Translations under genes and position numbers: made by a program
Notes under the pieces: generated by a model
Database searches by the model: none
Seen by the model: only the letters and a program-made list of their open reading frames with translations
Told to the model about the DNA's origin: nothing
DNA from: Octopus sinensis
Lineage: Eukaryota
Direction: 5' to 3'
NCBI RefSeq assembly: GCF_006345805.1
Contig: NC_043001.1
Location: 60,760,001 to 60,824,000, forward strand
DNA: 64,000 nt
Shown: piece after piece, positions 8,911 through 38,552 of the stretch
How positions within the stretch are numbered: position 1 is the first letter of the stretch
How the letters are laid out: each line of letters starts with the position of its first letter

Positions 8911-9383
8911 TATCTCCTTGTTTAGAAAATACAATGCATCATTTTATATGTGACATTGGCAGGAAATAAGAAAACACGAATTATGAATATAAATAATAAT
9001 AAAAAGTTTAGAATTAGATGATTTTTAACAACTATGCTAAATATATAGTACGTGACCTATCCAATAGGTCTTCCAGCTCTAAGACCATCGATAAAATTAC
9101 TAGTTCTTGTTAACTAGAATCAAATATCTTACGCTTAAAACCTGAGATATATATTAATTCAAGAGGTGCAAAGTGTTTTAAGTTCATTAATTAAAACATA
9201 TATTGAGTTTTATCGACAAGGTGGTTAACTTAGTATAATAATCATTATAACTTCCAGCTGAATAAATATTAACTTATAAACTGTTATTCACAATAATGTC
9301 AATGTGTGTGTCTGTCTATGTGTGTTTATGTGCGTGTGTGTGTTTATGTGCATGTGTGTGTGGATATACATATATTCATATAA

Positions 9384-9757
9384 CTCGAAACTGAGCCAGT
9401 CTCGCGATCCTTTTAGCTGGTAGAGGGTGGAGGAGTTTCGCTCCCCCACTCAACAATATATTGTATATAAAGGCTGCAGTGTGTTGCACCAATAAGCAGC
9501 TGGTGGAGCATCTGCCAGGGGTAAAATTAGTAGTAACATTCAACTGCCACTTTGATATGGCGACTGGCTTTATTATTTAATATATATTACCACTGTATCT
9601 CTTCTTCAGACTTTAAAAGTAGTTACCTTGCTTCTTTCAAATCAGTGATAAATGGTCACTTTGTTTACAATATATTGTTAGCAGTAGTACATTCTGGATA
9701 TCTCCCTGGCACGCATGTCCTCGCGACTGAAGAGGAGTCAAATAGCTCGAAACTGAG
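9384..9757 (+). mobile_element. 362 bp retrozyme-like monomer with a hammerhead split across its two ends
   Basis: 12 bp terminal direct repeat ctcgaaactgag (9384-9395 and 9746-9757). The left end carries GAAA ctg-agc-cag TC tcgcga; the right end carries tcgcga CTGAAGA g-gagt-caaata-gctc GAAA ctgag. Confidence 0.8.
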
Positions 9758-9960
9758 TAGTATATATATATATATATATATATATATCAGTCGCCACGAT
9801 CAATCGCGCAAAATCCACAAGTTTTTTTTTATATTCCCTCTGTTTATTTCTACGTGTTCGTTTCTGTTTGATACCCCAGCATCAAACTAAAACAACCCGC
9901 TTGCTGTCTATACACCTGTCATCATCTTTTGCTTTTCAGTAAATTTCAACTATATATATA

Positions 9961-9999
<39 letters not shown>

Positions 10000-10004
<5 letters not shown>

Positions 10005-10200
10005 GTCATGATAGATCGCTAACCACTACACATATTTTTTCTCTCCTTGTTTCTCTCCTCGTTTCTTTCTGTGTTCCTTTCTGTGGAAGGGCGTAGGCTC
10101 GAAGCGTTAAAGAATTTTTCAATTCCCGAACGCTATACTAAAACATCTGTTTGTTTTCTACACCGCCTGTCTTTGTCTTTTGATTTTTGTGAATTCTCCC
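10000..10200 (+). repeat. Short (TA)n-embedded repeat family with a hairpin-GAAAC motif (relatives near 22230-22330, 25915-26025, 30835-30885, 36327-36530, 39357-39560)
   Basis: Shared layout: CT-rich tract, gaagagc-nnn-gctcgaaacgtt, cctgagcg/cccgaacg, then gtttgttttc. Always next to TA runs. Confidence 0.6.
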
Positions 10201-26114: not shown

Positions 26115-26656
26115 TAAATTTACATATAGAGGGCATTATACATACATGCCAGAAGGCATTATACATACATGCCAAACGCTAAGAGGGACAATTAGTCATT
26201 TCTACCAAAAATATTACTAATCCCACCGAATGCAATTTTTCAAAGTAAGACATTTAAAAAATTGCATTCGGTGGGATAGTAATATTTTTGGTAGAAATGA
26301 CTAATTGTCCCTCTTAGCGTTTGGCATTGTATGTAATGCCTTCTGGCATGTATGTTTAATGCCCTCTATATATAAATTAATATGTTCAATAAGAAATAAT
26401 TATTTTCGAAATTTTTTCTCTTATGAGGTTTTTACGCTATCTACCTGACAATTCTTGTTAAGTCCTTATTAAGTAGTTGTCCTTAATTGCTAAATTTTTA
26501 TTCCGAAAAATCTTTTCCTCTCCCGAAATGCAATTCGTAAAAGTTTGCCATTTATCCGGGATAATATATGTAAACTCACCCATGTGCTTCGTTGATGTCG
26601 AGCAGTTAGCTGATCGGCTTAACGGGGCAGGGTCGTTGTTTATTTATAATAATTCA

Positions 26657-26702
26657 GGCCTGCTGATGAGTACGTAAGTATGAAATCACTGTGATACAGG
26701 TC
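26657..26702 (+). ncRNA. Minimal type I hammerhead ribozyme, copy 1
   Basis: ggcctg CTGATGA gtac-gtaa-gtat GAAA tcac-t-gtga TA caggtc. Confidence 0.9.
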
Positions 26703-27137
26703 TATATTTTTTTTAATGTCTTACTTTGAAAAATTGCATTCGGTGGGATTAATAATATTTTTGGTAGAAATGACTAATTGTCCCTCTTAGCGTTTGGCAT
26801 GTATGTATAATGCCTTCTGGCATGTATGTATAATGCCCTCTATATATAAATTAATATGTTCAATAAGAAATAATTATTTTCGAAATTTTTTCTCTTATGA
26901 GGTTTTTACGCTATCTACCTGACAATTTCTTGTTAAGTTTTCCTTATTAAGTAGTTGTCCTTAATTGCTAAATTTTTATTCCGAAAAAACTTTTCCTCTC
27001 CCGAAATGCAATTCGTAAAAGTTTGCCATTTATCCGGATGTAATATATGTAAACTCACCCATGTGCTTCGTTGATGTCGAGCAGTTAGCTGATCGGCTTA
27101 AGCGGGGCAGGGTCGTTGTTTATTTATAATACATTCA

Positions 27138-27183
27138 GGCCTGCTGATGAGTACGTAAGTATGAAATCACTGTGATACAGGTC
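27138..27183 (+). ncRNA. Minimal type I hammerhead ribozyme, copy 2
   Basis: Identical to 26657-26702. Confidence 0.9.
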
Positions 27184-27610
27184 TATATTTTTTTAAATGT
27201 CTTACTTTGAAAATTGCATTCGTGGGATTAATAATATTTTTGGTAGAAATGACTAATTGTCCTCTTAGCGTTTGGCATGTATGTATAATGCCTTCTGGCA
27301 TGTATGTATAATGCCCTCTATATAAAATTAATATGTTCAATAAGAAATAATTATTTTCGAAATTTTTTCTCTTATGAGGTTTTTACGCTATCTACCTGAC
27401 AATTTCTTGTTAAGTTTTCCTTATTAAGTAGTTGTCCTTAATTGCTAAATTTTTATTCCGAAAAAAACTTTTCCTCTCCCGAAATGCAATTCGTAAAAGT
27501 TTGCCATTTATCCGGATGTAATATAGTAAACTCACCCAGGCTTCGTTGATGTCGAGCAGTTAGCTGATCGGCTTAAGCGGGGCAGGGTCGTGTTTATTTA
27601 TATACATTCA

Positions 27611-27656
27611 GGCCTGCTGATGAGTACGTAAGTATGAAATCACTGTGATACAGGTC
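27611..27656 (+). ncRNA. Minimal type I hammerhead ribozyme, copy 3
   Basis: Identical to 26657-26702. Confidence 0.9.
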
Positions 27657-27922
27657 TATATTTTTTTAAATGTCTTACTTTGAAAATTGCATTCGGTGGG
27701 ATTAATAATATTTTTGGTAGAAATGACTAATTGTCCCTCTTAGCGTTTGGCATGTATGTATAATGCCTTCTGGCATGTATGTATAATGCCCTCTATATAT
27801 AAATTAATATGTTCAATAAGAAAAAATAAATTATTTTCGAAATTTTTTCTCTTATGAGTTTTTACGCTATCTACCTGACAATTTCTTGTTAAGTTCCTTA
27901 TTAAGTAGTTGTCCTTAATTGC

Positions 27923-27979
<57 letters not shown>

Positions 27980-36568: not shown

Positions 36569-36862
36569 ATATATATATATTTCAACAATTGAGGGTAAAA
36601 TTAATTAATTATTAATCAATTTCACCAAGTATTCAGTATGCAAGGGACCATTTAAGGCGAATTCAAATTATTACATTATATAAAAGGGCTTAGTAAAATA
36701 ATTACTTTGCCGCATACTGAACTCACTAGAAATAGTAGCTAAAAAAACTTTTTTAAAACTATTTCTAATACTTAAAGAAAACCTCTCTCATATAGTGTTT
36801 GCTCAATTCAACCAACGAAAGTATGGGGGTAAAGACATTAAAAAATCAAATGCAAGGTTATT

Positions 36863-36914
36863 TGAGAACGTACGTTTCAAGATTAGTCAACTCGACATTT
36901 CTATCATCAGCTCA
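36863..36914 (-). ncRNA. Type I hammerhead ribozyme (copies at 37422-37473 with C3 mutated, and 37980-38031)
   Basis: Minus strand: tgag CTGATGA tagaaat-gtc-gagtt-gac-taatctt GAAA cgtacg TT ctca. Confidence 0.75.
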
Positions 36915-38204
36915 GAACTCCTTGGTTTGGATTTGAAAACACTGAAAGTGGGAGCATACCCTTTCGGCTTCTTATCGCTTCTGAAGATCTGCTCGAAACT
37001 AACAGTGCCAGCAAACTCAAATATGCAAGCGAAGAATTTCTGCTCTCCCCTTTCCACCAGCGTGGGTTAAAATCAGTAAACACTATGCTTTTTTCGGTAA
37101 AATCCGAGGCATTAATAGAGAGAGATGAATTATAATTTCAACAATTGAGGGTAAAATTAATTAATTATTAATCAATTTCACCAAGTATTCAGTATGCAAA
37201 GGGACCATTTAAGGCGAATTCAAATTATTACATTATATAAAAGGGCTTAGTAAAATAAATTACTTTGCCGCATACTGAACTCATTAGAAATAGTAGCTAA
37301 AAAAACTTTTTTAAAACTATTTCTAATACTTAAAGAAAACCTCTCTCATATAGTGTTTGCTCAATTCAACCCACGAAAGTATGGGGGTAAAGACATTAAA
37401 AAATCAAATGCAAAGGTTATTTGAGAACGTACGTTTCAAGATTAGTCAACTCGACATTTCTATCATCATCTCAGAACTCCTTGGTTTGGATTTGAAAACA
37501 CTGAAAGTGGGAGCATACCCTTTCGGCTTCTTATCGCTTCTGAAGATCTGCTCGAAACTAACAGTGCCAGCAAACTCAAATATGCAAGCGAAGAATTTCT
37601 GCTCTCCCCTTTCCACCAGCGTGGGTTAAAATCAGTAAACACTATGCTTTTTTCGGTAAAATCCGAGGCATTAAATAGAGAGAGATGAATTATAATTTCA
37701 ACAATTGAGGGTAAAATTAATTAATTATTAATCAATTCACCAAGTATTCAGTATGCAAAGGGACCATTTAAGGCGAATTCAAATTATTACATTATATAAA
37801 AGGGCTTAGTAAAATAATTACTTTGCCGCATACTGAACTCATTAGAAATAGTAGCTAAAAAAACTTTTTTAAAACTATTTCTAATACTTAAAGAAAACCT
37901 CTCTCATATAGTGTTTGCTCAATTCAACCCACGAAAGTATGGGGGTAAAAACATTAAAAAATCAAATGCAAAGGTTATTTGAGAACGTACGTTTCAAGAT
38001 TAGTCAACTCGACATTTCTATCATCAGCTCAGAACTCCTTGGTTTGGATTTGAAAACACTGGTGGAAAGGGGAGAGCAGAAATTCTTCGCTTGCATATTT
38101 GAGTTTGCTGGCACTGTTAGTTTCGAGCAGATCTTCAGAAGCGATAAGAAGCCGAAAGGGTATGCTCCCACATTCAGTGTTTTCAAATCCAAACCAAGGA
38201 GTTC

Positions 38205-38256
38205 TGAGCTGATGATAGAAATGTCGAGTTGACTAATCTTGAAACGTACGTTCTCA
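38205..38256 (+). ncRNA. Type I hammerhead ribozyme in the inverted segment
   Basis: Same motif as 36863-36914, on the plus strand. Confidence 0.75.
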
Positions 38257-38552
38257 AATAACCTTTGCATTTGATTTTTTAATGTCTTTACCCCCATACT
38301 TTCGTGGGTTGAATTGAGCAAACACTATATGAGAGAGGTTTTCTTTAAGTATTAGAAATAGTTTTAAAAAAGTTTTTTTTAGCTACTATTTCTAATGAGT
38401 TCAGTATGCGGCAAAGTAATTTATTTTACTAACCCCTTTTATATAATATATATATATATTATATATATATATATTATATATATATATATATAATATATTA
38501 TATATATATATATCTATATATATATATATTATATATATATATATATATACAT

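What the first reader, a model, noticed from the sequence alone, without database searches (positions are those of the whole stretch)
9384..9757. Circularly permuted monomer: ribozyme halves at opposite ends point to a circular or multimeric RNA template
Seen: the 362 bp unit begins with the 3' half of a hammerhead (ctc GAAA ctg agc cag TC tcgcga) and ends with the 5' half (tcgcga CTGAAGA ggagtcaaatagctc GAAA ctgag), with a 12 bp terminal overlap. Joining the ends rebuilds a complete GUC-cleaving hammerhead. Inference: cDNA copied just over once around a ~362 nt circle, or cut out of a tandem array. The size suits an animal retrozyme circRNA, and the unit is non-coding.
Basis: partly seen in the sequence, partly recalled or inferred. 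Interest (0 to 1): 0.8.

Follow-up and report, generated by a model that had tools for sequence, protein, structure and literature searches.

The report
Ribozyme circle pasted by Penelope enzymes
This is an old, worn copy of a common 362-base non-coding repeat that carries a hammerhead ribozyme sequence; its relatives start at two fixed internal points and run through the ribozyme head to tail, so they were likely copied from a circular or tandem RNA by the enzyme of Penelope-like retrotransposons.

Summary
In detail: period 362 bp, exact 12-bp terminal repeat, two halves of a type I hammerhead, no ORF. The stretch is one decayed copy of a family with hundreds of candidate copies in this genome. 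Of 71 loci mapped, 61 run head to tail through a whole ribozyme, so the template was circular or multimeric. Copies are permuted only at the 5' end. 3' ends sit at two internal sites (57 of 71), usually against microsatellites. 28 loci have an inverted 5' arm, and 25 of these begin at the same two sites. A young 352-bp sister family shows this sharply: 44 of 46 ends at two sites, usually one site per arm, one 3.2-unit array, and a strongly self-paired circle. This matches the Penelope-like element 'tail' signature. This copy ends at neither site, so its split ribozyme and 12-bp overlap are more likely later erosion than a cDNA that stopped just past one turn. It is a new member of a known kind (animal non-LTR retrozyme). 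The family gives genomic evidence for the proposed Penelope helper; the helper itself was not found, and cleavage and circles were not tested.

The parts
9384..9745 (+). one 362-bp retrozyme unit (family O; unit position u = window position minus 9383)
   Evidence: period 362; family of 596-1145 candidates; profile hit
9384..9407 (+). 3' half of the type I hammerhead: stem II 3' strand, GAAA, stem III with near-palindromic loop, GTC, stem I 3' strand; predicted cut after 9401
9721..9757 (+). 5' half of the hammerhead: stem I 5' strand, CTGAAGA, extra G, stem II hairpin, GAAA and the start of stem III, cut off
9746..9757 (+). start of a second unit (12-bp repeat of 9384-9395); the copy ends here or a few bases later, at neither family end site
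9567..9600 (+). family end site A (u184-217 as mapped, blurred by AT runs; 42 of 71 copies end here); inferred reverse-transcription start; not used as an end in this copy
9621..9640 (+). family end site B (u238-257; 15 of 71 copies end here); inferred second start
9452..9472 (+). left arm of a 21-bp internal inverted repeat (partner 9659-9679), part of the self-paired fold
   Evidence: 19 of 21 matches
9659..9679 (-). right arm of the internal inverted repeat
9303..9362 (.). decayed (TG)n microsatellite on the left flank
9761..9787 (.). (TA)n run on the right flank, the family's usual target

Best explanation
The stretch is an old, likely dead copy of a 362-bp non-coding hammerhead repeat (non-LTR retrozyme) that was likely pasted in by the reverse transcriptase/GIY-YIG enzyme of a Penelope-like element working on a circular or tandem RNA. 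Proposed cycle: a locus with two ribozymes is transcribed, cut at both (probably as a ribozyme dimer through the palindromic stem III) and ligated to a unit-length circle (inferred). The Penelope enzyme nicks AT-microsatellite DNA and starts cDNA inside the RNA at one of two sites about 175 and 230 nt past the cut site (fixed ends shown; enzyme inferred). It copies backwards through the ribozyme junction and stops at random (shown as uniform 5' ends and 0.4-1.9-unit copies). Often the other DNA strand is primed too, mostly at the other site, leaving an inverted arm (shown). This copy most likely began as a roughly 1.5-unit insert ending at site A or B and later lost its 3' part, which left the ribozyme split (inferred).
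For: 61 of 71 loci cross the junction through a whole ribozyme; 3' ends at two sites in 57 of 71 (binomial p 2e-34, windows drawn after seeing the data); 5' ends uniform (Rayleigh p 0.59); 28 inverted arms, 25 starting at the same sites; 46 of 71 3' ends at microsatellites against 384 of 3550 control places. Sister family Y is colinear with the unit (218 of 391 columns, z 9.4; profile E 8e-27): 25 of 26 and 19 of 20 ends at y182-189 or y229-236; opposite sites on the two arms in 14 of 17 (p 0.004); a 1136-bp array with units 97-99% alike; circular fold z -9.5. Old copies keep a fold signal (median z -2.5, 23 of 34 below -2). The ribozyme core is conserved while N7 varies freely, and paired changes keep stem I and the stem III palindrome. 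The genome holds open RT + GIY-YIG frames of 775-883 aa. Two adjacent internal starts, nicking of both strands and AT-rich targets are shown in vitro for a Penelope-like enzyme (PMC11167929); inverted 5' arms with a tail on one end are typical of these elements (PMC8557442). Non-standard ends are commoner in the old family (14 of 71) than in the young one (2 of 46), as erosion predicts.
Against: No helper element was found: 42 Penelope-like loci share no terminal repeat with family O or Y, apart from independent retrozyme insertions. A circle and an uncleaved tandem transcript predict the same junction crossing; the longest O copy is 680 bp and only 1 of 46 Y loci exceeds two units. The paired changes are about one event each on the tree, so their Fisher p-values overstate. 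Arm pairing is weak in family O (7 A/A, 14 A/B, 0 B/B; p 0.046). Loci are the top-scoring hits of chosen queries, so lengths are biased upward and the first Y sample towards site B. The microsatellite test window includes 8 bases of the AT-rich element end. The erosion of this copy is not shown: the lost part is not elsewhere in the window, and 5' ends are slightly enriched near the cut site (9 of 99 against 4.6 expected, p 0.04).
Confidence: 0.78

Rival explanations
1. Same family and helper, but this copy's ends are original: cDNA was primed at or near the ribozyme-cut 3' end of an RNA and ran just over one unit.
For: The right end (u12-17) is within 6 bases of the cut site (after u18) and abuts (TA)n; no lost piece lies nearby.
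Against: Only 2 of 71 loci end at u13-17. The other (L022) reads as a later insertion flanked by an 11-bp repeat at the stem III palindrome. No Y locus ends there.
Confidence: 0.15
2. The template is a linear, uncleaved tandem transcript from master arrays; no circle is involved, and the ribozyme is not needed for insertion.
For: In the lizard Penelope-like element uncut RNA was the main substrate and ribozyme mutants still inserted (PMC11167929); most copies are under two units.
Against: Copies of a linear n-unit master can only shrink, yet the lineage lasted through O, an intermediate (71% to Y) and Y, and keeps ribozyme and fold. Circles are shown for mussel, coral and axolotl retrozymes (PMC7229834).
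Confidence: 0.25
3. The unit is the terminal repeat (pseudo-LTR) of an extinct or unsampled autonomous Penelope-like element, and the copies are its 5'-truncated ends.
For: The end geometry is that of these elements; retrozymes match pseudo-LTRs in Xenopus (bioRxiv 10.64898/2026.07.22.740005).
Against: Every junction-spanning copy continues unit into unit. ORF remnants lie in only 6 of 71 O loci and 2 of 30 Y loci, none placed as ORF-then-repeat or repeat-then-ORF start. The sampled autonomous element carries a different ribozyme.
Confidence: 0.08
4. The 12-bp overlap makes this copy a working permuted (type III-like) ribozyme in a linear host transcript.
For: All 14 pairs can form in the contiguous sequence, with stem III made between 9397-9400 and 9752-9755.
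Against: That fold is 7.8 kcal/mol above the ensemble, fraction 3e-6; the copy has lost the family fold (z -0.9).
Confidence: 0.03

Closest known systems
Animal non-LTR retrozymes (Cervera and de la Pena 2020, PMC7229834), e.g. the mussel 350-390-bp repeats
   Same: Unit size, under 50% GC, type I hammerhead, no ORF, no LTR features, self-paired circle predicted, Penelope-like elements in the same genome.
   Different: Mostly dispersed 0.4-1.9-unit copies, not long arrays. Two fixed internal 3' ends, inverted arms and microsatellite targets are not described in the parts read. Circles and cleavage are not shown here.
Penelope-like elements with endonuclease (PMC8557442; PMC11167929; PMC4209133)
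   Same: 5' truncation, partial tandems, inverted 5' arm, tail on one end, microsatellite target, two internal start sites, extra base after A9, palindromic stem III.
   Different: No ORF. The two sites are about 45 (Y) to 55-60 (O) nt apart, against a 30-40-bp tail. No shared terminal repeat with the autonomous elements sampled.
Vertebrate retrozymes as pseudo-LTR derivatives (Li, Clavereau, Pollet 2026, bioRxiv 10.64898/2026.07.22.740005)
   Same: Monomers and dimers with type I hammerheads, co-occurring with Penelope-like elements.
   Different: That work rests on co-occurrence and homology and suggests local tandem growth. Here the insertion ends themselves point to enzyme-driven retrotransposition, and the lineage has drifted to about 56% identity with no parent repeat found.
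Newt satellite 2 / axolotl retrozymes (as described in PMC7229834)
   Same: 330-350-bp unit; short stem III with palindromic loop that works as a dimer.
   Different: Stem III here has 4 bp counting A15.1-U16.1; far fewer copies; dispersed.

Membership tests
type I hammerhead ribozyme | CUGANGA and GAAA boxes, NUH triplet, three stems with stem I open | tested here: met
   one extra base after A9, as in Penelope-type ribozymes (PMC4209133)
type I hammerhead ribozyme | Rfam model at gathering score | tested here: not met
   none in the window; best 31.1 of 52 bits and 24.5 of 34 bits in 2 of 6 loci
type I hammerhead ribozyme | paired changes across copies | tested here: met
   stem I A-U, G-U, G-C series; loop III A/T to G/C keeps the palindrome; about one event each
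type I hammerhead ribozyme | self-cleavage | not testable with these tools
   needs in vitro transcription
non-LTR retrozyme | 150-450-bp non-coding unit with a type I hammerhead | tested here: met
   362 bp, longest ATG ORF 32 aa
non-LTR retrozyme | head-to-tail repeats with two or more ribozymes | tested here: met
   family level only: 4 of 71 O loci, Y array and dimers; this copy holds no whole ribozyme
non-LTR retrozyme | self-paired circular fold | tested here: met
   Y z -9.5; O median -2.5; this copy -1.0, i.e. lost
non-LTR retrozyme | expressed as linear and circular RNA | not testable with these tools
   only assembled contigs were available
non-LTR retrozyme | target-site duplication, when present, longer than 4 bp | not tested
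   most ends lie in (TA)n runs, where it cannot be read
Penelope-like element (autonomous) | RT + GIY-YIG ORF between pseudo-LTRs | tested here: not met
   no ORF in the unit; no tblastn hit in the window
element mobilised by a Penelope-like enzyme | two fixed internal 3' ends, inverted 5' arm with tail on one end, microsatellite target | tested here: met
   family level, not this copy's own ends
element mobilised by a Penelope-like enzyme | sequence shared with an autonomous partner | tested here: inconclusive
   none in 42 loci drawn from 5029 candidates

The most novel reading that the evidence does not exclude
Families O and Y are a long-lived lineage of circular RNA parasites that no longer resembles any Penelope terminal repeat and keeps only what the helper needs. 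A Penelope enzyme dimer nicks both strands of a (TA)n target and primes one strand at site A and the other at site B of the circle. Each insertion is then a record of rolling-circle copying from two fixed starts, and a 352-nt RNA is a minimal natural cargo for Penelope-driven insertion.
Probability: 0.35. Interest if true: 0.7.

Novelty: new member of a known kind. Interest (0 to 1): 0.45.

Why it matters
The locus itself is a fossil. The family matters because the helper and priming mode of animal retrozymes are open: PMC7229834 names Penelope-like elements as a candidate and leaves DNA or small-RNA priming undecided, and the 2026 preprint says the mechanism remains to be worked out. The ends mapped here give base-level predictions (starts at y188 and y231-234 of a 352-nt RNA, opposite sites on opposite strands) that can be tested with the published in vitro assay, using a young family and open Penelope frames from the same genome. 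Searches for octopus or cephalopod with retrozyme or Penelope hammerhead and for retrozyme with target-primed, inverted, microsatellite listed no paper describing this family or these ends. Repeat libraries (Repbase, Dfam) and the supplement of PMC7229834 were not seen and may hold it.

Tried and rejected
12-bp repeat as target-site duplication: rejected, it is internal to other copies. Permuted ribozyme working in cis: rejected on energy. Missing 3' piece elsewhere in the window: none. Helper search: first family accession (recalled) was not in the library; GIY-YIG search gave 147 matches, 42 loci examined, no shared repeat. Neighbouring repeat at 9788: its first 17 bases resemble the reverse of site A, but none of 19 other loci of that repeat matched the unit apart from one 20-base hit; left as probable chance. 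Expression: no RNA holder listed; one run guessed to be RNA has a 152-base contig over the left flank and the unit start, which may be DNA; no evidence either way. The right junction in other genomes could not be read because contigs stop at the microsatellite. The first profile parse over-extended spans and was replaced by a strand-switching parse. In one search the script's strict rule counted 3 inverted arms; by eye there are 6, of which 5 pair site A with site B. Before counting I dropped 25 of 96 O loci, 4 of 30 and 10 of 30 Y loci as repeats of the same place. Effect of an extra G after A9 on cleavage: recalled as harmful; not confirmed in the passages read. Earlier scan notes: none.

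Full report
Setting. The window is G000:C5:60760001-60824000 of a 2.72-Gb, AT-rich, microsatellite-rich animal genome. It is probably an octopus; that label is recalled from repeat motifs and genome size and comes from no call. Unit positions (u) count from window 9384.

Observation. The 12-mer at 9384 recurs at 9746 (period 362) and does not extend exactly. The two ends carry the halves of a type I hammerhead. Joined, they give stem I (6 bp), CUGAAGA, one extra G, stem II (4 bp), GAAA, stem III (4 bp, 3-base loop) and GUC with the cut after 9401; all 14 pairs are standard. The unit has no ORF. It lies between a (TG)n and a (TA)n run.

The family (O). A genome search gave 596 candidates, 40 scored, the best other copy at 81%; a more central copy gave 1145 candidates. 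Four searches returned 96 loci at 71 distinct places. They are old: pairwise identity is about 80%, median distance from column majority 13%, this copy 20%, and terminal branches are long. One tight ribozyme pattern matches only 6 places genome-wide. Contigs of two other runs with different organism labels carry the left flank and the unit with 3-5 differences, so the insertion is shared and not recent.

Insertion geometry. A parse that allows wrap-around and strand switches gives the counts. 57 loci contain one complete ribozyme, 4 contain two, 10 none; the longest run is 680 bp. The 5' ends are uniform round the unit (p 0.59). The 3' ends fall at site A (u184-217; 42 loci) or site B (u238-257; 15 loci), with 14 elsewhere. 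46 of 71 touch a microsatellite, against 10.8% of control places. 28 loci have an inverted arm at the 5' side, and 25 of those arms begin at A or B, so both outer ends of such an insertion are element 3' ends. Arms pair A with B in 14, A with A in 7, B with B in none. Caveats: loci are top hits of chosen queries, and the site windows were drawn after seeing the data.

The ribozyme was under selection in the source lineage. In 62 junction-spanning copies the boxes are conserved and N7 varies (G 22, T 19, C 12, A 8). 19 of 62 pass a strict core rule, which also fails a subfamily lacking A9. Stem I position 343-19 goes A-U, G-U, G-C along the tree, and loop III positions 11 and 13 switch A/T to G/C together. 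Those two bases cannot pair within one hairpin but keep a palindrome that can pair between two copies (self-duplex -13.2 kcal/mol for an unbroken copy, -10.1 for this one). Dimer cleavage, the palindrome and the extra base after A9 are described for Penelope-type ribozymes (PMC4209133, parts 1-2 of 4 read). Each paired change is about one event, so this is modest evidence.

A young sister family (Y). The O profile hit a repeat beside a Penelope-like ORF. It is a 352-bp unit with 2053 candidates at 95-98% identity, colinear with the window unit (218 of 391 columns, z 9.4; profile E 8e-27). One tight pattern for its ribozyme matches 45 places. Its ends are sharp: 25 of 26 distinct loci (query biased to site B) and 19 of 20 further loci from a mid-unit query end at y182-189 or y229-236, mostly against AT runs. 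In 14 of 17 loci with an inverted arm, one arm starts at each site (p 0.004); by eye 5 of 6 more do so. One locus is 1136 bp, 3.2 units, 97-99% alike. The Y circle folds at -128 kcal/mol, z -9.5; 34 natural O circles give median z -2.5 and this copy -1.0.

Mechanism. Fixed 3' ends with random 5' ends are the mark of target-primed reverse transcription. Two neighbouring internal starts, extension of both target strands and AT-rich targets were shown in vitro for a lizard Penelope-like protein, which is predicted to be a dimer (PMC11167929, parts 1-2 of 4 read). Partial tandems, inverted 5' arms, a tail on one end and microsatellite bias are typical of the group (PMC8557442, passages). The genome has 147 scored GIY-YIG matches among 5029 candidates. 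Four of 5 long frames tested carry RT and GIY-YIG, RT falling just under Pfam's cut-off in two. Shown here: ends, arms, junction crossing, fold signal. Inferred: the enzyme, cleavage, ligation and the circle. A cut linear monomer cannot be the template, because most copies run past the cut site. A circle and an uncut tandem transcript both fit; I favour the circle because a linear-only cycle can only shorten arrays, and because circles are shown for other animal retrozymes (PMC7229834, parts 2-4 of 6 read; supplement not readable).

This copy. It starts at about u355-u1 and ends at u12-17 of the next unit, at neither site. Non-standard ends occur in 14 of 71 old loci and 2 of 46 young ones, so loss after insertion is the simplest account; 1.5-unit copies starting near u1 and ending at site A are common (e.g. 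L005, L009, L010). Priming at the cut end remains possible (about 15%). Holding no whole ribozyme, it cannot release a monomer, and a permuted fold in cis is improbable.

Against and open. No helper was found in 42 loci; ORF remnants near 6 of 71 O and 2 of 30 Y loci are not placed as terminal repeats. A 2026 preprint (10.64898/2026.07.22.740005, parts 1-3 of 5 read) links retrozymes to Penelope terminal repeats by homology; no such parent turned up here, but the sample is small. Rfam support is below gathering score. Nothing here tests RNA.

Verdict. Real feature; new member of a known kind (non-LTR retrozyme), working like a non-autonomous Penelope cargo. The locus is a fossil. The family's ends make a published but untested helper hypothesis directly testable. 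Interest 0.45.

Noticed in passing
G000:C8:82985150-82986281 (L172) and family Y, e.g. L149:5452-5772: Young 352-bp sister retrozyme family, 2053 candidates at 95-98% identity, with a 3.2-unit array and a perfect or G-U palindrome in stem III; the best material for experiments.
   Followed up: yes
window 26258-27927: 478-bp tandem repeat, 3.5 copies at 96%, each with a hammerhead motif (26663, 27144, 27617; palindromic TCACTGTGA in stem III, ATA triplet); ends in (TA)n; circular fold z -5.1 against base shuffles. Looks like a younger, unrelated retrozyme array.
   Followed up: partly
window 36582-38440: About 560-bp repeat, 2.6 copies followed by an inverted arm, between (TA)n runs, with a CTGAAGA...GAAA motif at 36981, 37540 and 38138(-); fold z -4.0. 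Penelope-type geometry.
   Followed up: partly
window 9788-10200: Two partial copies of another common repeat (686 candidates) split by (TA)n, with a degenerate hammerhead-like motif near 10083; its first 17 bases resemble the reverse of site A.
   Followed up: partly
window 36025(-), 36440(-), 33422(+), 39889(-): Further minimal hammerhead-like motifs; the one at 39889 matches the ribozyme of the 781-aa autonomous Penelope-like element.
   Followed up: no
L020, L030, L047, L052, L063, L066 and relatives: An O subfamily whose core reads CTGAYG-T (no A9) and whose stem III becomes GCCGG-type; possibly an A9U ribozyme variant.
   Followed up: partly
L215 and L216: Two Y loci have an element end at y328, a possible minor third start site.
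   Followed up: no
L054, L198, L199, L212: Switches between inverted and direct arms often fall in the internal inverted repeat of the self-paired fold, suggesting annealing of the two cDNAs there.
   Followed up: no
L143:43-416: A copy 71% identical to Y with an inverted arm: an intermediate family of the same lineage.
   Followed up: no
L150:1174-4874 and L155: Autonomous Penelope-like element with a 479-aa upstream frame (no Pfam hit) overlapping the 781-aa RT/GIY-YIG frame, and repeated CCAAT-like units downstream.
   Followed up: no
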